Source: a virus
Taxonomy: Duplodnaviria > Caudoviricetes
Length of the DNA: 64,000 bases
IMG/VR virus record: IMGVR_UViG_3300009128_000006
Coordinates: 26,157-90,156 of that record
Reading direction: 5' to 3' (one strand)
Shown here: piece after piece, positions 1 through 64,000 of the stretch
Layout: each line of letters begins with the position of its first letter
Numbering within the stretch: the first letter of the stretch is position 1
The notes under the pieces: model-generated
Databases searched by the model: none
Told to the model about the DNA's origin: nothing
What the model saw: only the letters and a program-made list of their open reading frames with translations
Position numbers and translations under genes: made by a program

Positions 1-43
1 ACGAGGTGCTGACGCAGCGAAGCGGGACGCGGACAGCTTCCTC

Positions 44-8394: not shown

Positions 8395-9112
8395 GGAGGG
8401 CGAAGGGTCGCCGCTTCTTCTTTTGTAGGGTGTAGCCCGCAGAGCTTCCCAGGGGGAATGCAGAGAAGAGGTCAGCGACGGTGTTCACCATCTTGGGGAG
8501 AGCGATGGAGAACTCCCGCTTCCGGATCAGGATGTCATCGTGCCTCGGCGGGTAGACGAATGCCTTGACCGCCTCGTATGCTATCTTGCCGCCCTTCTTG
8601 ACAGGCAACCGGATGATGATGTGTGGCATCATCCACACGTCACCCTCTCGGCCGAAGTCGAGACCGACGCCCCATCCCACTACGCGACACCGGGCCTTGT
8701 CCACGGTGATGGGCGGACGCCGCGGGGCCGGAACGAGCGGGGAGCTCCACACTCCGTCATAGGGCAGGACCTGGCCCCGCTCCATGACCTGCGGCTTCGC
8801 CGGGTCCGGATCGTAGATGTTGAGCTCGGACCCGTTGATCGGGACGCGCTCGAGGATTTCCTGGATGCGAGCGAGATCATCTTCATCGGACCCGGGAGCC
8901 CACGACTCGCCCACGATGGACGAGTAGAAGTTGATGTCGTTGCCCAGGAAGTCCATCCGGAGGAGGCGGTGTTCTGGGATGGTGACCTCTTCGCCTCCTT
9001 TGGTGGTGGTGAGTTCTTCGGGCTGGTAGAGGACTTCCAGCCCGATGCCTGCGACGAGCGAAAGTCGTCGGCGGGGAGTTTGCATGTTGGGTGTCTCCAG
9101 ACCCGGCACCAT
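8345..9112 (-). CDS. Hypothetical protein
   Basis: Long ORF with codon bias; CATAAG promoter motif upstream at 9140-9145. Confidence 0.6.
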   Translation of the reverse strand: MVPGLETPNMQTPRRRLSLVAGIGLEVLYQPEELTTTKGGEEVTIPEHRLLRMDFLGNDINFYSSIVGESWAPGSDEDDLARIQEILERVPINGSELNIYDPDPAKPQVMERGQVLPYDGVWSSPLVPAPRRPPITVDKARCRVVGWGVGLDFGREGDVWMMPHIIIRLPVKKGGKIAYEAVKAFVYPPRHDDILIRKREFSIALPKMVNTVADLFSAFPLGSSAGYTLQKKKRRPFALLDPVEQSGRTQREART

Positions 9113-9156
9113 GGATTAGGTGTTTACCGGGCTATTCTCCTTATGGCAGGGAAAGG

Positions 9157-54064: not shown

Positions 54065-55879
54065 TTAGACTATGCCCTCGATGTAGGGCAGCTTCATGTC
54101 CGAGTCCTTCCCCATCAAGTCATGGAACAGGGCTGCCGTGGTGAGTTCCTGCCCTGCAGGGATCTCCACCCGCAGCAGCCTCCGGTCTCGACTCATGGTC
54201 GTCTCGTAGAGGAGCTTCGCGGGCATCTCTCCCAGACCCTTGAAGCGGCTGATCTCTACCTTGCCTGTAGAGGATTCGACGATTGCGTCTCGCTCTGTGT
54301 CATCGAGGGCCCAGAAGTCTTTCTTTCCTGCCCGGATGCGGTACAGCGGCGGCTGGGCCACGTATACCCTTCCTGCGTCGATGAGCGGGAGCATGAACCT
54401 GTAGAAGAACGCGAGCATGAGAGTGGTGATGTGATGCCCATCCACATCCGCGTCCATCAACAAGATGACCTTCCCGTATCTCAGTGTGTTCAGGTTCAGT
54501 CTCTCACCCATTCCACATCCGAGAGCCTCGACCACGGCCTTCAGCTCCTTGTTGGTCCCTGCCTTCTTGGGGTTCACGATGACGTTCAACACCTTCCCCC
54601 GAAGTGGGAGGATGGCCTGAGTTCTGCGGTCACGCCCCTGCTTCGCGGAGCCTCCCGCACTGTCTCCTTCGACGATGAAGAGCTCCGTCTCTCCCAGGTT
54701 CGTAGAGGAGCAGTCTGCGAGCTTCCCGGGCAGAGCTGACTTCCGAACTACAGACTTCCGCCGTACCGTCGCTACAGCCTCTCTCGAAGCCGTCCGAGCC
54801 TTCGCAGCACTCACAGCGCGGTGGACGATAATCTCTGCCTGGGAAGAGTTTGTCCTCAACCAGTTCTGGAACCGCGTCCTTAGTCCCATTACCAAGGTCT
54901 TCCCCTCCTCCGAGTTGAGCCTCCCCTTCGTTTGTCCCTGGAACTGCACCCTCTCGAGAAGGACGTGCACTGCACCCATGACGCCTTCGCGGTAATCGTC
55001 AGGGACGAGCTTGGGCCTTCTCGGCAAGAGCTTGTTCGCCTTCGCGTGCTTCGCCACCTCCGTTGCAATGAGCTGCTTCAAGGCTGTGAAGTGCGTCCCT
55101 CCTTCCCGGGTTGGGATGGTGTTGGCGAAGCTCTTCCCCAGGACATCCATACCTGTAGGCGACGACGTCCATGACACAGCCACTTGCACAGCCTCATCCC
55201 GGATGTACCAGGTCGAGGAAATGGCTTGTTCTGTGTTCACCAGGTCGACCAGACCACCAGGGAACTGCATCTCCTCACCGTTGAAGCGGAATCGTGCACC
55301 TACCAGATGTGCCTTCAGCCATACACGGTTTCGGAGGGTCTCCATGTTGAAGGGACGCTTCCCGAAGATCATCACGTCCGGACGGAACCGGATGGCTGTG
55401 CCTCGTAGCTTCCTTCCACACCGCTTCACATCGGGCTCGGAAGGCTCTCCTCGCACGAAGGATTGGCAGTAATGTGTGCCATCCTTCCACACGTTGACTT
55501 CAAGCTCTGAAGACAGGGCGTTGACTACGGCACTTCCGACTCCATGCAGTCCGCCCGATGTGGTGTAGGCTCCGTCTCCGAACTTCCCTCCGGCATGGAG
55601 TTCCGTGAGGACCACTTCGACTGCGGCACGGCCGTCCTCCATCGCGTCGATGGGGATGCCTCGGCCGTTGTCCTTGATGGTGATCTCCCGGTCGGAGGCC
55701 TCGACATCGATGAGGGTGGCGTAGCCGGCCAGCACCTCATCGACTGCGTTATCGAGTACTTCCCACACCAGGTGGTGTAGCCCTTCTTCCTCGGTGTCCG
55801 GGATGAACATTCCCGGCACCTGTCTCACTGCCTCGAGTCCCTCCAGCTTCCTGATGCTGGAGGCGTCGTACTTGCTCAT
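54065..55879 (-). CDS. Type IIA DNA topoisomerase subunit B (GyrB/ParE-like)
   Basis: EVLDNAVDE, DNGRGIP, GGLHGVG, EGDSA, PLRGK, DADVDG, RFKGLGEM. Confidence 0.95.
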   Translation of the reverse strand: MSKYDASSIRKLEGLEAVRQVPGMFIPDTEEEGLHHLVWEVLDNAVDEVLAGYATLIDVEASDREITIKDNGRGIPIDAMEDGRAAVEVVLTELHAGGKFGDGAYTTSGGLHGVGSAVVNALSSELEVNVWKDGTHYCQSFVRGEPSEPDVKRCGRKLRGTAIRFRPDVMIFGKRPFNMETLRNRVWLKAHLVGARFRFNGEEMQFPGGLVDLVNTEQAISSTWYIRDEAVQVAVSWTSSPTGMDVLGKSFANTIPTREGGTHFTALKQLIATEVAKHAKANKLLPRRPKLVPDDYREGVMGAVHVLLERVQFQGQTKGRLNSEEGKTLVMGLRTRFQNWLRTNSSQAEIIVHRAVSAAKARTASREAVATVRRKSVVRKSALPGKLADCSSTNLGETELFIVEGDSAGGSAKQGRDRRTQAILPLRGKVLNVIVNPKKAGTNKELKAVVEALGCGMGERLNLNTLRYGKVILLMDADVDGHHITTLMLAFFYRFMLPLIDAGRVYVAQPPLYRIRAGKKDFWALDDTERDAIVESSTGKVEISRFKGLGEMPAKLLYETTMSRDRRLLRVEIPAGQELTTAALFHDLMGKDSDMKLPYIEGIV

Positions 55880-56394
55880 CGAGCCTCATGGGTAGTGACG
55901 TTGAGTTCCGTGACTGCCTTGTACTTCTTGAGTGCCTCATCGAGGAGATCTGCGGCCCAGTCGTCGAAGTCTCGGTCTGGGGTAAGAACCCCGCTGGGGT
56001 AGGTGCCGTGCTCTGCGTGGTGATCACGTGCATGGATGACGGTCTCCATCGCAGTCTTCAGTCCGCCTGTCCCCGCCAGGAACTGACGGAGAGTGGGCGG
56101 CTTGAGCTTCGGCTCGTCCACGGCCGGCTTTGCAGGCCGGAGGACTCCGTCGAGGATGAGGGTCTCGATGGCATAAGCGCCCTCTTCCATTGGACCCCTG
56201 CGGAGCTTGTCCCACAGCTTCCCGAAGAAACCCTTGGGACGGGCGACGATGGCGATGTGGGTAGCGAGATCTCCTGCCTGCTCCTCTGTGATCCAGCCCA
56301 ACCTCACAAGAGCCTTCAAGGTGCACTCCTTCCCTTCGTTGTACACCTCTGTGAGCTCACTCAGAGTCAGGGAGACGGTCAGGATCCGGGCCAT
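55876..56394 (-). CDS. Hypothetical protein
   Basis: GGAG RBS; overlaps topoisomerase start. Confidence 0.55.
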   Translation of the reverse strand: MARILTVSLTLSELTEVYNEGKECTLKALVRLGWITEEQAGDLATHIAIVARPKGFFGKLWDKLRRGPMEEGAYAIETLILDGVLRPAKPAVDEPKLKPPTLRQFLAGTGGLKTAMETVIHARDHHAEHGTYPSGVLTPDRDFDDWAADLLDEALKKYKAVTELNVTTHEAR

Positions 56395-56526
56395 CTATTC
56401 TCCCCCTCGCCATACTCCTTGAGGCCGGCAGTGATTCGTTCGAGCTCAGCTTTGAGCTCCTCGTATCGGTTCATTCGGTAACTCCTTGTTGGGTTCCTCA
56501 GCCCTTATGACGAGGAACCTGCGGAG

Positions 56527-57036
56527 TTACCAAAGGCACTGGAAGAAGCCGAGGAGCACAACACGGCGGCCTGTGTGCGGAGTCACAGAGTGTTTTACGG
56601 GCCCATAGCCTTCAGGATTCGAAGGGCTGCTCCCGTACACTACGGCAGAGCGGTAGTGGCGAATCGGAGAGGTATCCAGCCTGGATTCGCCATGTGTCCT
56701 GAAGATTCCGCCCTCGAAGTCATCCGGATGAGAGAGAAGTACACTCACAGACATTCCGCACCACGGCATGTGATGCGTTCCGTCTTCCTTGTACCCATCA
56801 TAGTGTGGCTCGTGCCCTCGAGGTTGGAGCTCAAAGCGCGCGTATGACGGAGCCTCCCACTGCACTTCGCAAGGCCAACCGGATCCTATGAGGATCCGGT
56901 TGAAGACTGTACGGACCAGAGGAGAACAAGCCGCAGGGGGCTGCGAAATCTCCTGTCTGAGATGGTTTCCCTCTTCCGCCTCATGGAGAAGTGCCTGAGC
57001 CTCCTCCGCAGAGACGACGTTTGGGACTACCACCAC
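56527..57036 (-). CDS. 2OG-Fe(II) oxygenase
   Basis: HYD, FEGG, HSVTP...R motifs. Confidence 0.8.
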   Translation of the reverse strand: MVVVPNVVSAEEAQALLHEAEEGNHLRQEISQPPAACSPLVRTVFNRILIGSGWPCEVQWEAPSYARFELQPRGHEPHYDGYKEDGTHHMPWCGMSVSVLLSHPDDFEGGIFRTHGESRLDTSPIRHYRSAVVYGSSPSNPEGYGPVKHSVTPHTGRRVVLLGFFQCLW

Positions 57037-57824
57037 TTGATGTAGCCGAGGAGGCTGCTCGCGTTGCGGTACGAGGCCTTCACGCGGTCACTCTCGTTCC
57101 CGCCGATGCACAGGTGCTTCCCACCTTCGGTGTTCACCACGAGACCCACATGCCGTGCTGTGGAGGCGGAGCTCTTGTCACTGCCGCTCCCTCCACGACC
57201 CATGATGAAGATCGCACCCGGAGGGCACGCCTGACCTGCAGGGATCCAGCGACCGGTCTTCTTCGCCCACAGCTCCATCTGGTAGCCGGAGCCCTGGAAC
57301 TTGCCGTCGAAGGGCAGTGACGAAGCTCCCCACTCCAGTCCCTTGCTTTGCCGGACGGCCTGCGCCGCGAGCATGGCACACCAGGGGTAGTACGCGGCCG
57401 GGACGATGCCCCAGTACTGCGCGTAGCCGTCCACGATGTGTGCGATTTCCGGACCGCAGTTGTTCCCGGACTCCTTCGCGCCGAGCTGCTTCGCAGCCCA
57501 TATGAGCGCGAGCTTCGGCCACTCCTCGCAGATCACCGGGATCTCGTCGAGGAGCCATGAAACCTGCGCGCTCTGCTCTTCGTGCTTCGAAGGCGAGATG
57601 CTCTTCGTGGCGGAGTCCGGCTCTTCGATCGCCTTCCAGGTGTTCGTCCCGACGATGCCGTCAGGAGTGAGGCCTTCGGCCGCCTGAAGGGTGATGACAG
57701 CGTCCTCGGTGCCTGCTCCGAAGATGCCGTCCGCGTCGATGTTGAAGCCGCGCAGGTTGATGAGCTCCTGCAAGAGCGTGACGGAGTTGCCACGGGAACC
57801 ACGACGAAGAAGGGGATGGGACAT
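57027..57824 (-). CDS. Endolysin: peptidoglycan-binding domain plus CHAP domain
   Basis: LRRGSRG...DGIFG...DGIVGTNTW; PWCA, HVGLV, GGNES. Confidence 0.88.
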   Translation of the reverse strand: MSHPLLRRGSRGNSVTLLQELINLRGFNIDADGIFGAGTEDAVITLQAAEGLTPDGIVGTNTWKAIEEPDSATKSISPSKHEEQSAQVSWLLDEIPVICEEWPKLALIWAAKQLGAKESGNNCGPEIAHIVDGYAQYWGIVPAAYYPWCAMLAAQAVRQSKGLEWGASSLPFDGKFQGSGYQMELWAKKTGRWIPAGQACPPGAIFIMGRGGSGSDKSSASTARHVGLVVNTEGGKHLCIGGNESDRVKASYRNASSLLGYIKWW

Positions 57825-57870
57825 AGGGGTGCTCCAGGGAAGGGGCTCATCCTATCCCAGCGGAGCTGCT

Positions 57871-58005
57871 GTGAAGAGTACGAAGGTCTGGAGGTATCGG
57901 AACTGTCCTGCCCCCGTGGAGAGGCTCAACTACGTCGTGAGTGCTCTTTTTGTGGGTATCTTCGTCTTTATGCTTGTCATCTCTACAGCGGCGTGGTTAG
58001 TGTAG
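57871..58005 (+). CDS. Small single-TM protein
   Basis: GGAG RBS, hydrophobic C-terminus. Confidence 0.35.
   Translation: MKSTKVWRYRNCPAPVERLNYVVSALFVGIFVFMLVISTAAWLV
57974..58003 (+). promoter_or_regulatory. Sigma70-like promoter for Ser/Tyr leader
   Basis: TTGTCA-N18-TAGTGT, 6 nt before ATG 58010. Confidence 0.6.
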
Positions 58006-58009
58006 GGAC

Positions 58010-58078
58010 ATGACTCGCAAGTGTGCCATCTCCTCTTCAAGTAGCTCGTATTTTACGGGCCCGGAGGGGTGTGCCTGA
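58010..58078 (+). CDS. Ser/Tyr attenuator leader peptide MTRKCAISSSSSSYFTGPEGCA
   Basis: TCC TCT TCA AGT AGC TCG TAT at 58031-58051. Confidence 0.8.
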   Translation: MTRKCAISSSSSSYFTGPEGCA

Positions 58079-58105
58079 TGCGTTAGAACCATCATCGGTC
58101 CACGA

Positions 58106-58150
58106 AAGAACCCCTCCCCGGCCCATTGTCGCGGAGGGGTTCTTGCATTC
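58106..58150 (+). terminator. Attenuator terminator hairpin before tRNA-Tyr/Ser block
   Basis: AAGAACCCCTCC / GGAGGGGTTCTT; 5' arm also complementary to GGAGGGGT at 58063-58070. Confidence 0.8.
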
Positions 58151-58236
58151 GGGGATCGAGTACAGTAGCTCGGGACTACTGGCGGGCCTGTAAAGTCCGT
58201 GCCTTAGGGATAGTGGTTCGAATCCACCGATCCCCA
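58151..58236 (+). tRNA. tRNA-Tyr(GTA)
   Basis: Acceptor GGGGATC/GATCCCC, anticodon loop CTGTAAA, GGTTCGAATCC. Confidence 0.9.
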
Positions 58237-58257
58237 CCTATTTCTTTGTCTTCTATT

Positions 58258-58340
58258 GGAGAGGTAACTCTGCGAGGCAGGGCTACGCTTGGAAAGCGTA
58301 TGGCGGTTTCGGCCGCGCGGGGCGGTACCGCACTTCTCCT
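58258..58340 (+). tRNA. tRNA-Ser(GGA), non-canonical T loop
   Basis: TACGC-TTGGAAA-GCGTA, long variable arm, acceptor GGAGAGG/CTTCTCC. Confidence 0.75.
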
Positions 58341-58351
58341 CTTCTTCACAT

Positions 58352-58427
58352 GGTCGTGTAGCTCAGTCTGGTAGAGCAGAGGGGTCGCCCCCAGAGACGC
58401 AGGTTCAAATCCTCGCTCGTTCCACCA
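58352..58427 (+). pseudogene. Degenerate tRNA (anticodon unresolvable)
   Basis: TAGCTCAGTCTGGTAGAGC D arm, GGTTCAAATCC T arm, CCA end; damaged anticodon and acceptor stems. Confidence 0.6.
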
Positions 58428-58433
58428 CATCTT

Positions 58434-58516
58434 GGAGAATGAACCGTCTGAGTGGACGGCCTCGTTTCGAAAACGAGCGGTGCGGCAAGCATTCGGGGCG
58501 GGACCGACGTTCTCCT
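58434..58516 (+). tRNA. tRNA-Ser(CGA), non-canonical T loop
   Basis: CTCGT-TTCGAAA-ACGAG, long variable arm, acceptor GGAGAAT/GTTCTCC. Confidence 0.75.
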
Positions 58517-58525
58517 CTACTTCTT

Positions 58526-58616
58526 GGAGAGTGAAATAGGTGCGGTTTCCCTTAGCGCGGTTGCTACCTGCGTCGGGTCATGTGGCCCGCTGGTTCGACT
58601 CCAGCACTCTCCTCCA
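58526..58616 (+). tRNA. tRNA-Ser(GCT)
   Basis: CGCGG-TTGCTAC-CTGCG, long variable arm, GGTTCGACTCC, CCA. Confidence 0.85.
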
Positions 58617-58629
58617 TCTCTACCACTTA

Positions 58630-58716
58630 GGAGAGGCCCGCGCAGAGGGGCGCATCCGGCTTTGAATACCGGCGGCAGGGTCACACCTGAGGTTTCGAGT
58701 ACCTGTCTCTCCTCCA
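58630..58716 (+). tRNA. tRNA-Ser(TGA)
   Basis: Anticodon loop TTTGAAT in CCGG stem, long variable arm, CCA. Confidence 0.75.
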
Positions 58717-58977
58717 CTTGTCCCAGATGCTCGCCGTGAGCTTCGAGGCATGGAACCTGTACCAGCCCTTCTTCCGGCCCTGAACCACAACCAGCAGACG
58801 ATACTTCGTGCTCCTCTTCCGATACCCAGGCTGCCGCATCACTGCGGCAGTAAGGAATCCCCGTTTTAGGGCCCATTCATGAAGGTTTAGCACCACGTAC
58901 CAGCTCTTTTTGCATGGGTACTCAACCCGCCCCTTCCGAGGGAAGTGGGCGATGGCGCGTAGCAGATCGGCTTCCAT
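58681..58977 (-). CDS. Hypothetical basic protein antisense within tRNA array
   Basis: Lower-GC ORF with TCATAAG box at 59058 upstream. Confidence 0.4.
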   Translation of the reverse strand: MEADLLRAIAHFPRKGRVEYPCKKSWYVVLNLHEWALKRGFLTAAVMRQPGYRKRSTKYRLLVVVQGRKKGWYRFHASKLTASIWDKWRRDRYSKPQV

Positions 58978-59062
58978 TCCAGCTGTGAGCATGAGAGCCC
59001 CTATGAAAAGCAACAGCATGAAGTCTTCGTAGCGATCATCACTACGCAGACGATTTTCTTAT

Positions 59063-59135
59063 GACGACAATCACAGGAGTGGACCTGCTGGGTCTGCAAA
59101 ACCCGGGGAGTGGAGTTCAAGTCTCCCTGTCGTCT
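59063..59135 (+). tRNA. tRNA-Cys(GCA)
   Basis: Acceptor GACGACA/TGTCGTC, loop CTGCAAA, U73. Confidence 0.8.
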
Positions 59136-59154
59136 TCTCTGTTACACTGTGAAT

Positions 59155-59364
59155 GTGAGTACTCAGCTGATCATGACGGCGATCCTACTGGTCCTGGCCA
59201 GTTTCGGCTTCGCCGTGTCCGGGTACTCCCTCGATGACAGCGCCTTGTCCCAGAAAGGCTTCGCTGTCATCGCGACTGATCGCCGGCCCGGCGATCAGGT
59301 GACCGCCAACGAGCGGAATGCGACTGCGCCACAGACTCGTCCCCTGCAGGAAGGCTTCCCGTAG
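59155..59364 (+). CDS. Leader-like peptide with N-terminal signal/TM segment
   Basis: TG-T-TACACT extended -10, 6 nt, GTG; ends QEGFP before hairpin. Confidence 0.5.
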   Translation: MSTQLIMTAILLVLASFGFAVSGYSLDDSALSQKGFAVIATDRRPGDQVTANERNATAPQTRPLQEGFP

Positions 59365-59387
59365 GGGACTTCTCAGTTCTGGGAACC

Positions 59388-59428
59388 CGAGAGGCCTCCG
59401 TCACCAAAGCGGGAGGCCTCTCGCGTTT
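59388..59428 (+). terminator. Terminator hairpin of attenuator-like architecture
   Basis: CGAGAGGCCTCC / GGAGGCCTCTCG followed by CGTTT. Confidence 0.75.
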
Positions 59429-59513
59429 GAGCTCTCGTTATGCTTCACACATGGGCGGTATTCGGCGAGACCCAGGACAGGAGCGCCCCGATGGTCCGGC
59501 GTATACTCCTCGT

Positions 59514-59813
59514 ATGGCCCCGAAGCGCCTACTACTGCACGCCGTGTTCATCCTCATCCAGGATGACGACGTTCGGAGGACCACTGCGGCCATCTTCTTC
59601 TTCTACCTGGGCCTGATGGTGATCTTCCTGGCCCTTGTCCCCATACCAGAAGAGAGCGCGAAGACCATTCATCTCATCATCGGCGGCCTGGTCGGCGGAG
59701 GCATCGGCCCTGCGATTAGAGCCCTACTGGACAAGGGAGACGGACAGAAGCCGAGCCTGGAAGCTCACTTCTCTGGCGAAGGGAACGGGAGCACAGCACC
59801 TCGAGGCCCTTGA
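59514..59813 (+). CDS. Two-TM membrane protein (holin-like)
   Basis: TATACT 6 nt before ATG; two hydrophobic helices around PIPEE. Confidence 0.5.
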   Translation: MAPKRLLLHAVFILIQDDDVRRTTAAIFFFYLGLMVIFLALVPIPEESAKTIHLIIGGLVGGGIGPAIRALLDKGDGQKPSLEAHFSGEGNGSTAPRGP

Positions 59814-59968
59814 ACTCCGAGACTCCTTCGAAGCTCTCGCACTTCCTTGTCTGTACGCGGCCAAAACGAGCCGTCCGGCATGAGCTTGTACTTGCGATGG
59901 AAGGCCCTCCACCGAGGCAGTAGGTTGAAGAACGGGAACACGTTCGAGAGTGGGATCACCTTGCTCAT
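59765..59968 (-). CDS. Hypothetical small protein
   Basis: GGAG RBS. Confidence 0.4.
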   Translation of the reverse strand: MSKVIPLSNVFPFFNLLPRWRAFHRKYKLMPDGSFWPRTDKEVRELRRSLGVQGPRGAVLPFPSPEK

Positions 59969-59972
59969 ATGC

Positions 59973-60001
59973 TTGACTCCCTCTCCACAGGGTACTACAC
60001 C
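59973..60001 (+). promoter_or_regulatory. Sigma70-like promoter for Leu leader
   Basis: TTGACT-N17-TACACC, 6 nt before ATG 60008. Confidence 0.65.
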
Positions 60002-60007
60002 TAAGAC

Positions 60008-60073
60008 ATGACCTTCGTGATGCGCGCGCTATCCTCCTTGCTTCTTCTGAAGCCCGGGGAGGGGTGCGTGTAG
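60008..60073 (+). CDS. Leu attenuator leader peptide MTFVMRALSSLLLLKPGEGCV
   Basis: CTA, then TTG CTT CTT CTG at 60038-60049. Confidence 0.8.
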   Translation: MTFVMRALSSLLLLKPGEGCV

Positions 60074-60096
60074 GGTCATCAACCTACGACACCGTC

Positions 60097-60137
60097 GGAA
60101 GCCTCCCCAGCGAAAGCTCGGGAGGTTTCTTGCGTTT
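60097..60137 (+). terminator. Attenuator terminator hairpin before tRNA-Leu block
   Basis: GGAAGCCTCCC..AGC-GAAA-GCT..GGGAGGTTTCT then TGCGTTT; CCTCCCC also pairs with GGGGAGG at 60056-60062. Confidence 0.8.
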
Positions 60138-60139
60138 AT

Positions 60140-60224
60140 GGGGAGGTAGCCGAAATGGATAGGCACCAGGTTCAGGCCCTGGGGGGCTCAGTCTCCGATG
60201 CGGGTTCGAGTCCCGTTCTCCCTA
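60140..60224 (+). tRNA. tRNA-Leu(CAG)
   Basis: CCAGG-TTCAGGC-CCTGG, long variable arm, GGTTCGAGTCC. Confidence 0.88.
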
Positions 60225-60232
60225 CTCTTTTT

Positions 60233-60316
60233 GCGGAAGTGGCGAAACAGGCAGCCGCGCGGGCTTGAGGGGCTCGTGGTCTTCGGACCGTGGGGGTTCA
60301 AATCCCCCCTTCCGTA
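60233..60316 (+). tRNA. tRNA-Leu(GAG)
   Basis: CGGGC-TTGAGGG-GCTCG, variable arm with TTCG loop, A73. Confidence 0.92.
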
Positions 60317-60323
60317 CTACTTT

Positions 60324-60451
60324 GAGGAGATGGGCAAACGGTAAAGCCACCAGTCGGTATGGGCTGGGGACATCCCGAAACCGCCGTCGTCCGTCCGGAA
60401 GGGAGGCGGAGCACGGTGGACGGATTGGAGGTTCGACTCCTCCTCTCCTCA
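60324..60451 (+). ncRNA. tRNA-like RNA with oversized variable region and aberrant anticodon loop
   Basis: Perfect acceptor GAGGAGA/TCTCCTC, D arm, GGAGG-TTCGACT-CCTCC T arm; 128 nt. Confidence 0.6.
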
Positions 60452-60458
60452 TTATTCT

Positions 60459-60533
60459 GCCCCGGTACGCCAGTTGGTAGTAGCGACCGCACTTAAAATG
60501 CGGTGGATGGAGGTTCGAATCCTCTTCGGGGTA
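60459..60533 (+). tRNA. tRNA-Leu(TAA) with short variable loop
   Basis: CCGCA-CTTAAAA-TGCGG, GGTTCGAATCC. Confidence 0.8.
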
Positions 60534-60537
60534 TCGC

Positions 60538-60566
60538 TTGACCTTCACGTGTTGAAGGACTACTAC
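60538..60566 (+). promoter_or_regulatory. Sigma70-like promoter for Gly/Thr leader
   Basis: TTGACC-N17-TACTAC, 6 nt before ATG 60573. Confidence 0.55.
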
Positions 60567-60572
60567 TTCTAC

Positions 60573-60683
60573 ATGCGTTCCTTCCTGGCCATCACCGGTA
60601 CAACCGGTACCACCGTCCTCCCGCCTGCGTTCGGCGGTCGAGGACTCATGCCAGGACGAACGCAGCTCATCAGCACAGTCTGA
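60573..60683 (+). CDS. Gly/Thr-rich leader peptide MRSFLAITGTTGTTVLPPAFGGRGLMPGRTQLISTV
   Basis: Same promoter geometry as other leaders; precedes tRNA-Gly genes. Confidence 0.6.
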   Translation: MRSFLAITGTTGTTVLPPAFGGRGLMPGRTQLISTV

Positions 60684-60719
60684 TCTGTTCGTAGCCCGCT
60701 TGTCCTGGCTCATACCTAA

Positions 60720-60774
60720 GCGGTAGTAGCTCAGGCACTTAGAGCGTCGGCTTGCCAAGTCGAAGGCCCCGGGT
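60720..60774 (+). pseudogene. 5' part of split tRNA-Gly(GCC)
   Basis: GCGGTAG acceptor strand, loop TTGCCAA, stops after T-stem CCGGGT. Confidence 0.85.
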
Positions 60775-60779
60775 GTTTT

Positions 60780-60851
60780 GCGTACATAGCTCAACGGTAG
60801 AGCATTTGTCTGCCAGGCAAAGGGCTGCGGGTTCGAATCCCGCTGTGCGCT
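60780..60851 (+). tRNA. tRNA-Gly(GCC)
   Basis: TTTGT-CTGCCAG-GCAAA, GGGTTCGAATCCC, U73. Confidence 0.88.
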
Positions 60852-60893
60852 TCACCTCTTGTGCGGTAGGGGATACTTGGTTATCTACCGCAT

Positions 60894-61415
60894 ATGGAAG
60901 AACAGAGAATATGCAGGTCGTGCGGAGATACAAAGCCCGTCTCAGAGATGATTCCCATCAAAAGACGAGGAAAGGTTTACTATAGGAGGCAGTGCCGTTC
61001 GTGTGAGAGCAAACGATGCGCTGTACACCACGCGACGCCAAAATCTAAGGCGGCTTACAAGGCCCGTTCCGACATGCTCAAGGTAGAGCGCGCTGCTGGT
61101 CTGAATGTCGAGCGTTGGATTTACGAAGATGCTCGACGTTCAGACCGAAAGCGCGATCTGGAGAACGACCTGACGAAGGCATTTATCCGAGAGCAGATCG
61201 AGAAAGGGTGTAGCTATTGTGGAGAGGAGAGTATCCGTATGACTCTTGACCGGATCGATAACAGCATCGGGCACTTACAATCAAACTGCGTGCCTGCCTG
61301 TATTCGCTGCAACTGTACCAGAAGGCACATGCCTTACGAGGCATGGCTGATTGTGGCCCCGGCCATGCGGGAGGCGCGGTTGGCAGGTCTCTTTGGGGAT
61401 TGGACTGGAAGATAG
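60894..61415 (+). CDS. HNH-family endonuclease
   Basis: CSYCG...TLDRIDNSIGHLQSNCVPACIRCN. Confidence 0.85.
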   Translation: MEEQRICRSCGDTKPVSEMIPIKRRGKVYYRRQCRSCESKRCAVHHATPKSKAAYKARSDMLKVERAAGLNVERWIYEDARRSDRKRDLENDLTKAFIREQIEKGCSYCGEESIRMTLDRIDNSIGHLQSNCVPACIRCNCTRRHMPYEAWLIVAPAMREARLAGLFGDWTGR

Positions 61416-61432
61416 TCCCGGCTACCGCACCA
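61414..61432 (+). pseudogene. 3' part of split tRNA-Gly
   Basis: AGT-CCCGG-CTACCGC-ACCA complements T stem and acceptor of 60720-60774. Confidence 0.85.
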
Positions 61433-61436
61433 TTTT

Positions 61437-61496
61437 GGCGTCATAGCTCAGTCCTGATAAGGCTGAGGTCGTTGGTTCAACTCCAACCGGTATCAC
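61437..61496 (+). pseudogene. Deleted/chimeric tRNA with Ile(GAT) 3' half
   Basis: TAGCTCAGT joined directly to CCTGATAAGG; acceptor strands do not pair. Confidence 0.6.
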
Positions 61497-61503
61497 TCTC
61501 TAC

Positions 61504-61578
61504 ACTGCCGTGGATCAATGGTAGATCGCCAGGCCCTCACCCTGGAGACCGCGGGTTCGAACCCCGTCGGCAGTACCA
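61504..61578 (+). tRNA. tRNA-Glu(CTC)
   Basis: CCAGG-CCCTCAC-CCTGG, acceptor ACTGCCG/CGGCAGT, ACCA. Confidence 0.8.
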
Positions 61579-61583
61579 CCTAC

Positions 61584-61671
61584 AACGCCGAATGCAAAGT
61601 GGATCGCGCGGCTGGGTTTTCATTCCAGTGCCCGTAAGGGGTAGGGGGTTCGAGTCCCCTCGGCGTTACCA
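61584..61671 (+). tRNA. tRNA-Glu(TTC) with long variable arm
   Basis: CTGGG-TTTTCAT-TCCAG, acceptor AACGCCG/CGGCGTT, ACCA. Confidence 0.65.
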
Positions 61672-61680
61672 ATCCTATAT

Positions 61681-61730
61681 GTTGGCCGTAGCTCAGTCCG
61701 GTAAGAGCGCCAGGTTGTGGCCCTGGAGGT
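61681..61730 (+). pseudogene. 5' part of split tRNA-His(GTG)
   Basis: CCAGG-TTGTGGC-CCTGG, no T arm follows. Confidence 0.8.
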
Positions 61731-61763
61731 TTAAGAGAAATCTCGACAAGCACCCGTGAATAT

Positions 61764-61835
61764 GGTACCTTTGGTGTAGCGGTAGCACGCCAGATTGTGG
61801 TTCTGGAGGCTCCGGTTCAAACCCGGGATGGTACC
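61764..61835 (+). tRNA. tRNA-His(GTG)
   Basis: CCAGA-TTGTGGT-TCTGG; G-1:C73. Confidence 0.85.
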
Positions 61836-61841
61836 CTTTTC

Positions 61842-62453
61842 ATGCCCCAGAAGAAGTCTGTTCCTAAGGTCTGTGAGGTGTGCGGAGACGTATTTCTTGT
61901 GCGGCCGGTGGACGCGAGACGGCATCCCTGCCGGTTCTGTAGTCGCTCCTGTAAAGGCAAGGCCCAGCCTCCTATAAGCAGAGGATTGACCGGAGAGGAT
62001 AATCCGAACTGGAAAGGGGGGCTGACCTTCAGCAAGTCTACAGGGTACTGGAGAGTCTTACAGCCCACACATCAGCGAGCAGACCATCTGGGGTACGTCA
62101 AGCGAGCGGACTTGGTACTGGAAGAGAAACTTGGGCGGCCTTTACTTCCCAATGAGATTGCGCACCACGTCAACGAAGATCGGGCAGATGACTCCCCAGA
62201 GAACCTGGAGTGCATGGACTATGGCGAGCACCGGCTGATGCACATCCAGCAGAGGGCAGAGCGTGCTCGGCAGTTAAACCCTCCGAAGCCGAAACAACCA
62301 GATCACCCCAGCAACCGCCGCTATACGTGGCCCTCGGATTCTGAGCTCCTCGAGATGAGGAAGACGATGAGCCTTCGACAGATTGCGGCCATAGTCGGCT
62401 GCGGCCATAAGACCGTAGATAGACGTCTCTCTCGTATTTCCTCCTCGAGATAA
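61842..62453 (+). CDS. HNH endonuclease with N-terminal Zn ribbon and C-terminal HTH
   Basis: CEVCG..FCSRSC, NPNWKGG, HHVNEDRADDSPENL. Confidence 0.88.
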   Translation: MPQKKSVPKVCEVCGDVFLVRPVDARRHPCRFCSRSCKGKAQPPISRGLTGEDNPNWKGGLTFSKSTGYWRVLQPTHQRADHLGYVKRADLVLEEKLGRPLLPNEIAHHVNEDRADDSPENLECMDYGEHRLMHIQQRAERARQLNPPKPKQPDHPSNRRYTWPSDSELLEMRKTMSLRQIAAIVGCGHKTVDRRLSRISSSR

Positions 62454-62477
62454 TCCCGTCGCTCACCTACCTTTCTC

Positions 62478-62515
62478 GGGAGAGTGGTGTAACTGGCAGC
62501 ACGTGAGGCTCTTCA
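62478..62515 (+). pseudogene. 5' half of split tRNA (identity uncertain)
   Basis: GGGAGAG-TG-GTGTAACTGGCAGCAC-G-TGAGG, ends in anticodon loop. Confidence 0.75.
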
Positions 62516-62516
62516 T

Positions 62517-62590
62517 GGACGGGTAGCTCAGCAGGCCAGAGCGTCCGGCTTTGGACCGGAAGGTGTGCGGTTCGAGTCCGCCCCCGTCTT
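62517..62590 (+). tRNA. tRNA-Gln(TTG)
   Basis: TCCGG-CTTTGGA-CCGGA, GGTTCGAGTCC. Confidence 0.85.
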
Positions 62591-62637
62591 CTCAAACCAT
62601 GCAGCCGTGTTATAGCCATACAAAAGGGTATGGTTCG

Positions 62638-63183
62638 ATGTCTGAGTCTCAAAGGAAGAGAGACGTAGTTCGCCGGCTAAGAACGGAAGGCAAGAGCTAC
62701 AAGGAGATTGCCGAAGCAACAGGGCTCACCAAGTCGACTATTGCATACCATGCAAGAAGATTGGGAATACCAGCCCAACCCCAGCGCCGTGATTACCCCT
62801 GGAATGAAATCCAGAAGATGTATGAGAGTGGGGCAACTTATCGGGAGTGCGCGCAGAAGTACGGGTTCTCCCGTACTGCATGGGACACGGCAAAACGTCG
62901 AGGGCTTATACACCCACGGGAGAAGAGGAGGCCTGTTGAACTCTACTTCTCTTGGAGGAAGAAGCTGTCGTCAACGGCAAAGAAGCGCCTGTTCGATGAG
63001 GGTATGTTGAAAAAGGAGTGCTCTATATGCGGACAAGGACCTGTATGGGCTGGGAAGCCTCTCGTTATACAGATTGATCACATCAATGGAAACCCCGCGG
63101 ACAATCGTCGTGAGAATCTACGGCCGGTGTGCCCGAACTGTCATTCTCAGACCCCGACGTTTTGCGGGCGAAACATCACCTAA
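62638..63183 (+). CDS. HTH-HNH endonuclease
   Basis: GKSYKEIAEATGLTKSTIAYH; CSICG...QIDHINGNPADNRRENLRPVCPNCHSQT. Confidence 0.9.
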   Translation: MSESQRKRDVVRRLRTEGKSYKEIAEATGLTKSTIAYHARRLGIPAQPQRRDYPWNEIQKMYESGATYRECAQKYGFSRTAWDTAKRRGLIHPREKRRPVELYFSWRKKLSSTAKKRLFDEGMLKKECSICGQGPVWAGKPLVIQIDHINGNPADNRRENLRPVCPNCHSQTPTFCGRNIT

Positions 63184-63212
63184 GGAGACTGGTTCGAACC
63201 CGGCCTCTCCTT
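63176..63212 (+). pseudogene. 3' half of split tRNA
   Basis: CCTAA..CTGGTTCGAACCCGG..CTCTCCT pairs with GGGAGAG at 62478. Confidence 0.75.
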
Positions 63213-63434
63213 CTACTTGAACGCAGCTGTGAGTTCGAGCACGACGGCACTGATGAACCAGTTGTCGCGCTGAAGACCGATCTTCCCGTCACTGCAGCGG
63301 ACCAGATGCCGCTTCCCCTCTTCGGAGAGGAAGTCCAGCTTCAAGCCGAGCTCCTTCTCTGCCTCTTCGACACTCACCGGCACCATCTTGTCGAAGGGCG
63401 GCTTCCGCTTCACTTCAGGAGCCTGTCCTGCCAT
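63213..63434 (-). CDS. Hypothetical protein
   Basis: Short ORF in minus-strand run. Confidence 0.45.
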   Translation of the reverse strand: MAGQAPEVKRKPPFDKMVPVSVEEAEKELGLKLDFLSEEGKRHLVRCSDGKIGLQRDNWFISAVVLELTAAFK

Positions 63435-63619
63435 CCCGGCTGAATCTCATCCTCGGGGTTCCTCGCCGCACGCTCCCTGAAGCGCTTCAGGTCTGAGTCC
63501 GTGAGATGGAAGGTCTCGAAGAGTCCATCAGGCATGACAACGAGGACAGAGTGGTACCGAGCAGGAGAGCCGAACGTGCGCTCCTTGTTCTCCGTCGTGA
63601 CCAGCTTTCCGAGCTTCAT
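63410..63619 (-). CDS. Hypothetical protein
   Basis: GAGG RBS, ATGA overlap. Confidence 0.5.
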   Translation of the reverse strand: MKLGKLVTTENKERTFGSPARYHSVLVVMPDGLFETFHLTDSDLKRFRERAARNPEDEIQPGWQDRLLK

Positions 63620-63990
63620 CGTTCCTCTGCCATGCCTCCCGTAGTGGTTCCGCCTGTTGATCCCGTGCCGGAGTCTTCTTGCAAGGACTCCAACGGCTCA
63701 GGCAGCTCAGTCACGACCACAGGGGGCTGGCTCCATCGCAAGTAGGCGGCGTAGACGGCAGCCCTGCAGACGTCGTTCTCGACGGCATCAGCGATGCTCT
63801 CGAGCGGCAGGTGTGATGGCCTGGTCGGGTCTGCCTCGTAGACGTCCATGGATGGCTGCTCCCAGTTGGGAGGCGCGTAGCCTTGATCTGCCAGGCGCAT
63901 GTCCCGTAGAACGGCTTTCACGGCCCCGAGGTCGTCCTTTACTTGGAGGACATCCTTGGCCACCTTCTCGGTGCGTACTTGGAACTGCAT
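63616..63990 (-). CDS. Hypothetical protein
   Basis: GAGGAGG RBS. Confidence 0.55.
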   Translation of the reverse strand: MQFQVRTEKVAKDVLQVKDDLGAVKAVLRDMRLADQGYAPPNWEQPSMDVYEADPTRPSHLPLESIADAVENDVCRAAVYAAYLRWSQPPVVVTELPEPLESLQEDSGTGSTGGTTTGGMAEER

Positions 63991-64000
63991 GGCCTCCTCG

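What the first reader, a model, noticed from the sequence alone, without database searches (positions are those of the whole stretch)
57974..60851. Phage tRNA cassettes apparently controlled by cognate-codon leader-peptide attenuators (tRNA-depletion sensors)
Seen: three tRNA blocks (Tyr+4xSer; 3xLeu; Gly) each begin with a sigma70-like promoter whose -10 box lies exactly 6 nt before an ATG, then a short ORF rich in the codons read by the downstream tRNAs. For Ser and Leu a GC hairpin follows, and its 5' arm can alternatively pair with the last codons of the leader (both end ...EGC-x-stop). Established: this is the layout of trp/his/leu/ilv ribosome-mediated attenuators, which normally control biosynthetic or synthetase genes. 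Host defences such as PrrC, PARIS AriB and retron PtuAB cut tRNAs, and phage tRNAs can rescue infection. Inference: the phage monitors each tRNA family's decoding capacity and transcribes replacement tRNAs on demand. I do not know of a described case of attenuation controlling phage tRNA genes.
Basis: partly seen in the sequence, partly recalled or inferred. Interest (0 to 1): 0.96.

Follow-up and report, generated by a model that had tools for sequence, protein, structure and literature searches.

The report
Codon-sensing leaders before phage tRNA genes
In an uncultured marine phage, two clusters of tRNA genes are each preceded by a tiny gene built from the codons those tRNAs read, followed by a switchable RNA hairpin, which looks like a switch that makes phage tRNAs only when decoding capacity runs short; similar tiny genes also precede tRNA clusters in well-known mycobacteriophages.

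Summary
L1 (ORF 58010-58078, MTRKCAISSSSSSYFTGPEGCA) contains all six Ser codons once each, then TAT. It precedes tRNA-like genes Tyr(GTA), Ser(GGA), Ser(CGA), Ser(GCT) and Ser(TGA). L2 (60008-60073, MTFVMRALSSLLLLKPGEGCV) contains TTG CTT CTT CTG and precedes Leu(CAG), Leu(GAG) and Leu(TAA). Each ORF starts 6 nt after a promoter-like -10 box. Each is followed by a GC hairpin whose tail abuts the first tRNA.

Folding gives the four-segment attenuator logic. A ribosome stalled on the control codons frees segment 2 to pair with the terminator's 5' arm. A ribosome at the stop codon does not.

A 66%-related metagenomic phage keeps the L1 leader (50/56 nt). Its only changes inside the Ser run are three wobble changes that again leave all six Ser codons.

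The Gly cassette (L3) has no terminator and no significant codon enrichment.

A small survey found two analogous leaders in cluster C mycobacteriophages: MFARLSLSSSLRLS before Ser/Leu tRNAs, and MRTSSQQNRQQ before Gln/Asn tRNAs.

No expression data exist. The promoters and U-tracts are weak, and several of the tRNAs are non-canonical. The link to host defence is untested. My ten literature searches found no earlier description.

The parts
57974..58003 (+). L1 promoter-like site: -35 TTGTCA (57974-57979), 18-nt spacer, -10 TAGTGT (57998-58003). It lies 6 nt before the ATG.
   Evidence: In relative L005, 29 of 36 nt are identical and the -10 block is unchanged. Not flagged by the generic scan.
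58010..58078 (+). L1 leader ORF, MTRKCAISSSSSSYFTGPEGCA-stop. Control codons at 58031-58051 are TCC TCT TCA AGT AGC TCG TAT.
   Evidence: L005 is identical at 50 of 56 nt.
58025..58036 (+). L1 segment 1. It overlaps the first Ser codons and pairs with segment 2 in the untranslated fold.
   Evidence: MFE.
58058..58074 (+). L1 segment 2, GGCCCGGAGGGGTGTG (last leader codons). It is the alternative partner of the terminator 5' arm.
58104..58150 (+). L1 terminator-like hairpin: 5' arm 58104-58123, 3' arm GGAGGGGTTC 58133-58142, tail TTGCATTC 58143-58150.
   Evidence: -29.0 kcal/mol, z -5.08..
58151..58716 (+). Block 1 tRNA-like genes: Tyr(GTA) 58151-58236, Ser(GGA) ~58258-58341, degenerate tRNA-like 58352-58423, Ser(CGA) ~58434-58518, Ser(GCT) 58526-58616, Ser(TGA) 58630-58716.
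   Evidence: Only Ser(GCT) is called by ARAGORN at default.
59973..60001 (+). L2 promoter-like site: TTGACT (59973-59978), 17 nt, TACACC (59996-60001). It lies 6 nt before the ATG.
   Evidence: Weak -10. Not flagged.
60008..60073 (+). L2 leader ORF, MTFVMRALSSLLLLKPGEGCV-stop. Leu codons are CTA (60029) and TTG CTT CTT CTG (60038-60049).
60021..60070 (+). L2 segments 1 (60021-60044) and 2 (60049-70, containing GGGGAGGGG). They form a strong hairpin when untranslated.
   Evidence: whole leader -66.9 kcal/mol, z -5.37..
60096..60139 (+). L2 terminator-like hairpin: 5' arm 60097-60108, 3' arm GGGAGGTTTC 60120-60129, tail TTGCGTTTAT 60130-60139.
   Evidence: -27.5 kcal/mol, z -6.02..
60140..60535 (+). 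Block 2: tRNA-Leu(CAG) 60140-60225, Leu(GAG) 60233-60317, a 122-nt tRNA-like element 60325-60446 of unclear identity, Leu(TAA) 60458-60535.
   Evidence: (three Leu above the Rfam cut-off).
60538..60851 (+). L3: TTGACC/TACTAC promoter-like site, 36-codon ORF 60573-60683, truncated Gly-like tRNA ~60717-60779, tRNA-Gly(GCC) 60780-60851. Not an attenuator of the L1/L2 type.

Best explanation
L1 and L2 are ribosome-mediated transcription attenuators that gate phage tRNA genes.

Proposed sequence of events:
1. Transcription starts at the A of the ATG, so the mRNA is leaderless.
2. A ribosome translates the 21-22-codon leader.
3. If every cognate tRNA is available, the ribosome runs to the stop codon and covers segment 2 (GGAGGGG). 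The terminator (segments 3:4) then forms, and transcription ends at the 5' edge of the first tRNA gene.
4. If the ribosome stalls on a control codon, it covers segment 1 and leaves segment 2 free. In L1 the control codons are one of each Ser codon plus TAT. In L2 they are TTG, CTT, CTT and CTG.
5. Free segment 2 pairs with segment 3, the terminator cannot form, and the tRNA block is transcribed.
6. Without any translation, segments 1:2 and 3:4 form and transcription is off.

The result is negative feedback: phage Ser/Tyr or Leu tRNAs are made when decoding of any of their codons is slow.

Shown here: the sequence anatomy, the alternative pairings, the codon statistics and the conservation. Inferred: the transcription start, translation of the leader, termination, and the response itself.
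For: Codon-anticodon match:
- Every tRNA in each block has a cognate codon in its leader, 5 of 5 for L1 and 3 of 3 for L2.
- Six consecutive Ser codons use all six synonyms (P=0.0085 given this phage's codon usage).
- The leaders use rare codons: TAT is 13.7% of Tyr codons, TCA and AGT are 8% each, TTG is 8% and CTA 2.9%. CTC, the commonest Leu codon at 40%, is absent from L2.
- Ser+Tyr make up 7 of 21 codons (p=0.0016). Leu makes up 5 of 20 (p=0.029).

Structure:
- I folded the transcript cut before the terminator's 3' arm. With a ribosome mask on the control codons, segment 2 pairs with segment 3 (-33.1 kcal/mol for L1, -28.7 for L2). With the mask at the stop codon, segment 3 stays free.
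- Leader versus terminator 5' arm duplex, L1: -28.9 kcal/mol against -15.7+-3.0 in shuffles, with 0 of 2000 shuffles as good.
- Same test, L2: -18.3 against -13.5+-2.5, with 75 of 2000 shuffles as good.
- GGAGGGG occurs 12 times on the + strand of the genome. Three of those are in the two leaders.
- Fold z-scores are -2.95 (L1), -5.37 (L2), and -5.1 and -6.0 for the two hairpins.
- The hairpin tails abut the first tRNA, so there is no room for a second promoter.

Relative L005 (lysin 66% identical):
- Leader identity is 50/56 nt, against 95/149 for the intergenic DNA.
- The three single-base differences in the Ser run are all third-codon positions and again give all six Ser codons.

L1 and L2 look like paralogues. 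They share the MT start and the (P)EGC-x-stop ending, with SSSSY replaced by LLLLK.

Precedent: leaderless leader peptides with hairpins control aaRS genes in Streptomyces and Deinococcus (passages of PMC8079986; PMC4007540).

Independent analogues in cluster C mycobacteriophages:
- MFARLSLSSSLRLS lies before Ser, Ser, Leu, Leu, Leu tRNAs.
- MRTSSQQNRQQ lies before Gln and Asn tRNAs.
- Bxz1 and Lukilu differ in the first leader by two in-frame codon indels and synonymous changes only.
Against: - There are no expression data of any kind.
- The generic scan flags neither promoters nor terminators here. The -10 boxes TACACC and TACTAC lack the conserved final T. The U tracts are weak (TTGCATTC, TTGCGTTTAT).
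- The full-length MFE always contains the terminator. The switch therefore depends on co-transcriptional kinetics, which I did not model.
- L2's antiterminator is only marginally better than shuffles (p=0.0375).
- A ribosome on the last Leu codon may partly cover segment 2.
- CU-rich Ser/Leu codon runs pair with G-rich segments, so they could be by-products of structure. For the actinobacterial LEU element, a Leu-codon run pairs with the SD box. Mutating the Leu codons there did not behave as classical attenuation (passages of PMC1262725).
- CTA in L2 has no cognate phage tRNA.
- Four of five block-1 tRNAs fail Rfam's tRNA model at E<=1, so they may not be functional.
- Only one relative was found. 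It covers only 56 nt of L1 and nothing of L2.
- The mycobacteriophage leaders lack a U-tract terminator and may work differently.
- L3 does not fit.
Confidence: 0.62

Rival explanations
1. Structured, untranslated 5' leaders. A promoter is followed by a hairpin that acts as a constitutive partial terminator, a processing site or a stabiliser of the tRNA precursor. The small ORFs and their Ser/Leu runs would be by-products of CU-rich strands that pair with GGAGGGG-type segments.
For: The CU-rich runs do pair with the G-rich segment. The LEU element gives a precedent in which a Leu-codon run is part of a stem and codon mutations did not act as in attenuation. The promoter and U tract are weak. 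L3 is a structured leader without attenuator features.
Against: - The L1 Ser run continues with AGT AGC, which are not CU-rich and are not needed for pairing.
- All six Ser codons are present and are restored after three wobble changes in L005.
- In mycobacteriophages, TCG is replaced by AGC and indels are whole codons.
- The ATG sits at fixed spacing from the -10 box in every case.
Confidence: 0.15
2. The leaders are translated and do sense cognate tRNA supply, but the output is not termination. Ribosome position would instead control folding, RNase P/E processing or stability of the first tRNA precursor.
For: In Bxz1 and Myrna, the Ser codons CATCCTCC pair with the 5' acceptor strand GGAGGGTG of the first tRNA, and no U tract follows the hairpin. 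In the window the hairpin tail directly abuts the tRNA 5' end, so the hairpin sits where RNase P must cut.
Against: In the window, the hairpins resemble the phage's other gene-end terminators: a GC stem followed by a TTCTTCGTT/GCGTTT-type tail. The four-segment logic matches termination control.
Confidence: 0.13
3. The small ORFs encode functional micropeptides unrelated to tRNA control.
For: The amino-acid sequence is conserved. Only synonymous changes separate Bxz1 from Lukilu. L005 has only one residue change in 18.
Against: Synonymous sites outside the Ser run are also frozen in L005. That points to RNA-level constraint. The composition tracks the downstream anticodons in four separate leaders. 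No family hit was sought because the peptides are too short.
Confidence: 0.04
4. These are remnants without function: duplicated promoter-terminator cassettes and decaying tRNA genes in a region churned by homing endonucleases.
For: Three HNH endonuclease genes and several truncated or degenerate tRNA-like pieces lie in the array. Several tRNAs are non-canonical.
Against: The leader is the best-conserved stretch between the window and L005. Acceptor and anticodon stems of the odd tRNAs are intact, with compensatory changes.
Confidence: 0.05

Closest known systems
Classical ribosome-mediated attenuators (trp, his, leu, thr, pheA and ilv operons; pheST) of enterobacteria. Recalled textbook knowledge, plus the description in PMC4007540 (passages).
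   Same: A short leader ORF with tandem control codons. Four segments that form 1:2, 2:3 and 3:4 pairings. A stop codon placed so that a terminating ribosome blocks the antiterminator. An intrinsic terminator before the regulated genes.
   Different: The regulated genes are tRNA genes, not biosynthetic or synthetase genes. The leader mRNA is leaderless. The control run displays each synonymous codon once instead of repeating one codon. The element is in a phage. The U tract is weak.
Leaderless leader-peptide attenuators of Actinobacteria and Deinococcus upstream of aminoacyl-tRNA synthetase genes. Examples: Streptomyces lividans LeuL2 MRAVRLLLSEPR before leuS, with trpS, alaS and thrS (PMC8079986, passages); D. 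deserti cysS (PMC4007540, passages).
   Same: The transcription start coincides with the leader's start codon. The peptide is short and has cognate codons. A hairpin follows. The regulated gene is a component of the translation apparatus for the same amino acid.
   Different: Those elements control the charging enzyme. This one would control the tRNA itself and reads out isoacceptor supply codon by codon.
LEU element / leuA leader of Actinobacteria (PMC1262725, passages). S. lividans LeuL1 is MRFGLLLLSCRGEGL.
   Same: A run of four Leu codons followed a few residues later by G-E-G close to the stop (L2: LLLLKPGEGCV). The CU-rich Leu run pairs with a G-rich segment.
   Different: The LEU element has a pseudoknot, pairs with the SD box of leuA and has no clear terminator. 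Its mechanism is reported as not classical attenuation. I tested no sequence homology to L2. The resemblance is at the peptide level only.
T-box riboswitches
   Same: They sense the supply of a specific tRNA and switch between a terminator and an antiterminator.
   Different: T-boxes bind the tRNA directly, without translation, and have Stem I and the conserved T-box sequence. Rfam found no such match in 56000-64000 at E<=1.
Leader ORFs before tRNA clusters of cluster C mycobacteriophages (Bxz1, Cali, Myrna, Lukilu, Tonenili). Not annotated in the records I saw.
   Same: An ATG lies 7 nt after an extended -10 (TGnTACAGT or TAGATT). The ORF has 10-14 codons made largely of codons read by the tRNAs immediately downstream (Ser/Leu; Gln/Asn). 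A hairpin lies between the ORF and the first tRNA. Every tRNA of the block is represented.
   Different: No detectable sequence relation to the window (tRNA identities 51-73%). There is no U-tract terminator. The control codons overlap the hairpin or pair with the tRNA 5' strand, so the mechanism may differ.

Membership tests
Ribosome-mediated (leader-peptide) transcription attenuator | Short ORF at the start of the transcript, with a usable start codon. | tested here: met
   ATG lies 6 nt after a -10-like hexamer at L1 and L2. The layout is conserved in L005. The transcription start itself was not measured.
Ribosome-mediated (leader-peptide) transcription attenuator | Control codons cognate to what is regulated, enriched or tandem in the leader. 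| tested here: met
   L1 has six Ser codons plus Tyr, 7 of 21 (p=0.0016). L2 has 5 Leu of 20 (p=0.029). Every downstream tRNA is represented.
Ribosome-mediated (leader-peptide) transcription attenuator | Intrinsic terminator (GC hairpin plus U tract) between the leader and the regulated genes. | tested here: inconclusive
   The hairpins are strong (-29.0 and -27.5 kcal/mol, z -5.1 and -6.0). The tails are only moderately U-rich, and the consensus scan does not call them.
Ribosome-mediated (leader-peptide) transcription attenuator | An antiterminator mutually exclusive with the terminator, formed when the ribosome stalls on the control codons and blocked when it reaches the stop codon. | tested here: met
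   Masked folds. Duplex versus shuffles: L1 0 of 2000 as good, L2 75 of 2000 as good.
Ribosome-mediated (leader-peptide) transcription attenuator | A 1:2 pairing that overlaps the control codons, giving the default off state. | tested here: met
   MFE. It is strong in L2 (60021-60070) and shorter in L1 (58025-58036 with 58063-58074).
Ribosome-mediated (leader-peptide) transcription attenuator | Read-through that depends on translation and on the supply of charged cognate tRNA. | not testable with these tools
   No RNA run was listed. This needs experiments.
Ribosome-mediated (leader-peptide) transcription attenuator | Regulated genes are amino-acid biosynthesis, transport or aaRS genes, as in all described members I know or read about. 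| tested here: not met
   The downstream genes are tRNA genes. This is the point of novelty. It is not a mechanistic requirement.
T-box riboswitch (RF00230) | A match to the T-box covariance model (Stem I specifier, T-box sequence). | tested here: not met
   No T-box match in 56000-64000 at E<=1.
tRNA (RF00005), for the block-1 genes | A match to the tRNA covariance model, or an ARAGORN call. | tested here: inconclusive
   - Ser(GCT): called by ARAGORN. With Rfam it matches only the tRNA-Sec model, at 31.8 bits (cut-off 47).
- Ser(TGA): called only at a lowered ARAGORN threshold.
- Tyr, Ser(GGA), Ser(CGA): no call.
- All five fold with a 7-bp acceptor stem and a canonical anticodon loop.
- Ser(GGA) and Ser(CGA) have an unusual T loop, GGCGG(T/G)A.

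The most novel reading that the evidence does not exclude
Phages of unrelated lineages carry a previously unrecognised class of regulatory element. These are leaderless mini-ORFs that display one codon for each isoacceptor of the tRNA genes just downstream. They use ribosome speed on those codons to switch the phage's own tRNA supply on. In effect this is a codon-resolved sensor of host tRNA depletion, including depletion caused by tRNA-cleaving defence or toxin systems. The unusual shapes of the gated tRNAs would then be adaptations that keep them out of reach of the same nucleases.
Probability: 0.4. Interest if true: 0.93.

Novelty: new variant of a known kind. Interest (0 to 1): 0.88.

Why it matters
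Why phages carry tRNA genes is still debated, between codon compensation and replacement of tRNAs lost to host shut-off or defence nucleases. An attenuator that reads each cognate codon and gates the matching tRNA genes would show that the phage treats tRNA supply as a variable to be sensed. It would be the first case known to me of leader-peptide attenuation controlling tRNA genes. It would also give a natural, compact, codon-specific sensor of decoding capacity.

Analogous leaders exist in cluster C mycobacteriophages, which grow on the laboratory strain Mycobacterium smegmatis mc2 155. The idea is therefore directly testable, although the marine phage itself is uncultured.

Tried and rejected
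Relatives:
- blastn of 57800-61000 against phage records gave one unrelated 85-nt tRNA match.
- Protein-seeded scans of viral contigs with the lysin, the GyrB-like protein, a lysin alignment and the terminase found nothing close.
- Lysin relatives of 32-40% identity (L004, L006-L011) have no tRNAs by ARAGORN or Rfam. L006 also has a different gene order.
- Pattern scans for the leader and for a tRNA-Ser piece gave 0 hits.
- Structural patterns for segments 2..3..4 gave 12 and 5 hits in viral contigs. All were iteron or REP-like repeats, and none lay beside a tRNA.

Sequencing runs:
- Six DNA runs from two studies hold the stretch.
- The four that I laid carry it with 0 other letters in the long pieces, so there was no population variation to use.
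- No RNA holder was listed.

Host: the nearest bacterial GyrB homologues are 47-50% identical, in Myxococcota/'Deltaproteobacteria' MAGs. That is too distant to name a host.

Other checks that led nowhere:
- The genome-wide hairpin scan was poorly tuned and missed L1. I use it only to illustrate the tails of other terminators.
- PHROGs gave no family for the four small ORFs within the array: 58681-59019(-), 59765-59968(-), 59110-59364 and 59427-59813.

Survey of other phages:
- No convincing leaders were found in phiCbK, T5, KVP40 or Streptomyces phage Wipeout. The weak hits were LHIMEKMKKK before T5 tRNA-Lys and an EEE run in KVP40.
- In one search, 6 of 26 listed homopolymer runs matched a downstream tRNA. 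That is about what chance gives, so only the mycobacteriophage and window hits stand out on inspection.
- tRNAs of the window and of Myrna are only 51-73% identical, so a shared origin is not shown.

Literature:
- Ten searches found no description of leader-peptide control of tRNA genes.
- PMC2836559 was irrelevant.
Table S9 of PMC4007540 (the 14 leader peptides) and Supplementary file 1b of PMC10264068 could bear on this, and I did not see them.

Full report
WHAT THE WINDOW IS

The window is bases 26157-90156 of a single 90,156-bp contig of about 60% G+C. The contig encodes a large terminase, HNH endonucleases, a PG-binding/CHAP-type lysin and a GyrB-like topoisomerase. It is therefore a phage. 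Its DNA is held in marine and seawater metagenome runs from two studies. It has no close relatives in the phage, viral-contig or genome collections I could search.

THE OBSERVATION

ARAGORN finds ten tRNAs in the window, all on the + strand between 58526 and 62591.

- Only Ser(GCT) is called at default settings. Ser(TGA) appears at a lowered threshold.
- Tyr(GTA), Ser(GGA) and Ser(CGA) are found neither by ARAGORN nor by Rfam's tRNA model at E<=1.
- All five nevertheless fold with a 7-bp acceptor stem and a canonical 7-nt anticodon loop with U33 and a purine at position 37.
- Ser(GGA) and Ser(CGA) share an unusual T loop, GGCGG(T/G)A, with a compensatory change in the T stem.

Block 2 holds Leu(CAG), Leu(GAG) and Leu(TAA), all above Rfam's cut-off. 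It also holds a 122-nt tRNA-like element of unclear identity.

Upstream of each block the sequence is as reported:
- L1: TTGTCA-18 nt-TAGTGT-6 nt-ATG at 58010.
- L2: TTGACT-17 nt-TACACC-6 nt-ATG at 60008.
- L3: TTGACC-17 nt-TACTAC-6 nt-ATG at 60573.

The L1 ORF reads ATG ACT CGC AAG TGT GCC ATC TCC TCT TCA AGT AGC TCG TAT TTT ACG GGC CCG GAG GGG TGT GCC TGA. That is all six Ser codons once each, followed by a Tyr codon.

The L2 ORF contains CTA TCC TCC TTG CTT CTT CTG and ends GGG GAG GGG TGC GTG TAG.

IS IT MORE THAN CHANCE?

- I took codon usage from 50 long ORFs. With it, six Ser codons include all six synonyms with probability 0.0085. The leaders prefer rare codons (TAT, TCA, AGT, TTG, CTA) and L2 avoids CTC, the commonest Leu codon.
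- In all six frames of the genome there are seven runs of six or more Ser and 23 runs of four or more Leu. Only L1 uses six different codons.
- The chance that such runs fall on the right strand within about 140 nt upstream of the matching tRNA blocks is roughly 0.005 for Ser and 0.017 for Leu. This is my arithmetic.
- Enrichment is significant for L1 (p=0.0016) and L2 (p=0.029), but not for Gly in L3 (p=0.086).

STRUCTURE

Both leaders carry a G-rich segment in their last codons (segment 2). In L1 it is GGCCCGGAGGGGTGTG at 58058-58073. In L2 it is at 60049-60070.

Each is followed by a strong hairpin (segments 3 and 4) with z-scores of -5.1 and -6.0. The tail of each hairpin abuts the first tRNA.

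The folds behave as follows:
- Untranslated: segment 2 pairs back with the control-codon region (segment 1) and the hairpin forms.
- Transcript cut before segment 4, ribosome mask on the control codons: segment 2 pairs with segment 3 (-33.1 kcal/mol for L1, -28.7 for L2).
- Same transcript, mask at the stop codon: segment 3 stays free.

The leader:segment-3 duplex is far better than shuffles for L1 (0 of 2000 as good). It is marginally better for L2 (75 of 2000). GGAGGGG occurs only 12 times on this strand of the genome, and three of those are in the two leaders.

This is the logic of the classical four-segment attenuator.

Weak points:
- The consensus scanner calls neither the promoters nor the terminators.
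- The U tracts are short.
- The full-length minimum-energy fold always contains the terminator. The switch would therefore have to be kinetic.

L3 differs. It has no terminator, and a long helix sequesters its AUG.

COMPARATIVE EVIDENCE

One metagenome contig, L005, encodes a lysin 66% identical to the window's. On the other strand it carries the first 56 nt of the same leader.

Identity by region:
- Lysin coding end: 50/65.
- Intergenic DNA: 95/149.
- Promoter: 29/36.
- Leader: 50/56.

The six leader differences are of two kinds. One codon changes (AAG to TCC, which adds a Ser). Three single bases change at third positions of the first three Ser codons, turning TCC TCT TCA into TCT TCA TCC. 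The run therefore again holds all six Ser codons. Changes confined to third positions in this frame, together with a preserved codon set, argue that the frame is read.

L1 and L2 look like paralogues in which SSSSY was exchanged for LLLLK between conserved ends.

A SECOND LINEAGE

To test generality I fetched the tRNA regions of Bxz1, Myrna, phiCbK, T5, KVP40 and Streptomyces phage Wipeout. I scanned short ORFs upstream of tRNAs. Most showed nothing convincing. Cluster C mycobacteriophages gave two hits.

(A) Before a cluster of Ser(GCT), a second Ser, Leu(CAG), Leu(GAG) and Leu(CAA):
- The ORF is MFARLSLSSSLRLS in Bxz1 and Cali, MFALLSLSSSLRLS in Myrna, MFAFRLSLSSSLLS in Lukilu and MIAFRLSLSSSLVS in Tonenili.
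- The ATG lies 7 nt after an extended -10, which is TGnTACAGT, or TAGATT in Tonenili.
- A hairpin sits between the stop codon and the tRNA. It has a different sequence in the Lukilu group.
- Bxz1 and Lukilu differ within the ORF by two whole-codon indels and five synonymous changes, including TCG to AGC. There are no amino-acid changes.
- Each of the five tRNAs has a cognate codon in the leader.

(B) Before Gln(CTG) and Asn(GTT):
- The ORF is MRTSSQQNRQQ in the Bxz1 type and MRTNRLNRQQ in Myrna.
- It again follows TGcTACAGT-7 nt-ATG.
- The 5' arm of its hairpin is the last Gln codons plus the stop codon.

TACAGT-N6-8-ATG occurs only four times on the forward strand of Bxz1 and twice in Myrna. 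Two sites in each genome are these leaders. The Ser/Leu region is present in 206-207 phage records.

These elements lack a U-tract terminator and may act differently. In the fold, the Ser codons pair with the tRNA's 5' strand. They still show that short translated leaders matched to downstream anticodons recur in an unrelated phage family (tRNA identities 51-73%).

COMPARISON WITH WHAT IS KNOWN

Leaderless leader peptides followed by hairpins are described upstream of aaRS and biosynthetic genes in Streptomyces lividans and Deinococcus deserti (passages read). These include LeuL2 before leuS and LeuL1 (MRFGLLLLSCRGEGL) before leuA. LeuL1 resembles L2's LLLLKPGEGCV.

The actinobacterial LEU element is a caution. 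There, a Leu-codon run is part of a stem, and codon mutations did not behave as classical attenuation (passages).

No T-box or other Rfam family matches the region.

Ten full-text searches found no report of leader-peptide control of tRNA genes. In the main text of the eLife paper on cluster C1 phage tRNAs, the words promoter and terminator do not occur.

VERDICT

L1 and L2 are most likely ribosome-mediated attenuators gating phage Ser/Tyr and Leu tRNA genes (confidence about 0.6). L3 is not. The mechanism is a known kind. The target (tRNA genes), the one-codon-per-synonym design and the phage setting are new. The proposed role as a sensor of defence-induced tRNA loss is plausible but untested.

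Noticed in passing
window 58151-58716: Non-canonical class II tRNA-like genes. Tyr(GTA) has a 6-bp D stem. Ser(GGA) and Ser(CGA) have the T loop GGCGG(T/G)A in place of TTCRANY and a 3-nt D loop. By my reading, all four Ser genes have T at the discriminator position. Only Ser(GCT) and Ser(TGA) encode CCA. Standard detectors miss most of them.
   Followed up: partly
window 60325-60446: A 122-nt element between Leu(GAG) and Leu(TAA). It has an acceptor-like stem, D and T arms (GGAGGTTCGACTCCTCC), a long extra arm and a non-canonical anticodon loop. Its identity is unknown.
   Followed up: partly
window 61584-61671: An 88-nt tRNA with a variable-arm hairpin (class II shape) but anticodon TTC (Glu), ending ACCA. 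ARAGORN calls it Glu. Rfam scores it only as weakly tRNA-Sec-like. A long-arm scaffold with a Glu anticodon could be charged with another amino acid.
   Followed up: no
window 58352-58423, 60717-60779, 61688-61747: Degenerate or truncated tRNA-like pieces. The last two have Gly(GCC)-like and His(GTG)-like anticodon arms and lie directly before intact tRNAs with the same anticodon. They may be scars of gene replacement in an array that also holds three HNH endonuclease genes (60894-61415, 61797-62453, 62551-63183).
   Followed up: partly
window 60859-60896: The HNH gene at 60894 also has TTGTGC-17 nt-TATCTA-6 nt-ATG. This is the same promoter-to-ATG spacing as the three leaders, which suggests that leaderless transcripts are used throughout this region.
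   Followed up: no
window 9091-12240: The large terminase ORF is 1049 aa. The PHROG terminase match covers only residues 560-1021, and a second family matches 127-562. It may carry an insertion or a fused domain.
   Followed up: no
window 54065-55879 (-): A full-length GyrB/ParE-like protein. Its nearest bacterial homologues are 47-50% identical, in Myxococcota/'Deltaproteobacteria' MAGs. This is only a weak hint about the host.
   Followed up: partly
L085 (Bxz1 32,739-33,400), L084 (Myrna 32,385-32,960), L076/L081 (Bxz1 ~127,194; Myrna ~122,472): Unannotated leaderless mini-ORFs rich in Ser/Leu or Gln/Asn codons. They lie directly before the matching tRNA clusters of cluster C mycobacteriophages and are conserved across five sequence types.
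   Followed up: yes
window 58681-59019 (-) and 59765-59968 (-): Two minus-strand ORFs inside the array have gene-like GC position bias but match no family. The first overlaps the 3' end of Ser(TGA). The L1 hairpin would also look like a terminator on the minus strand (tail TTCTTTCG).
   Followed up: partly
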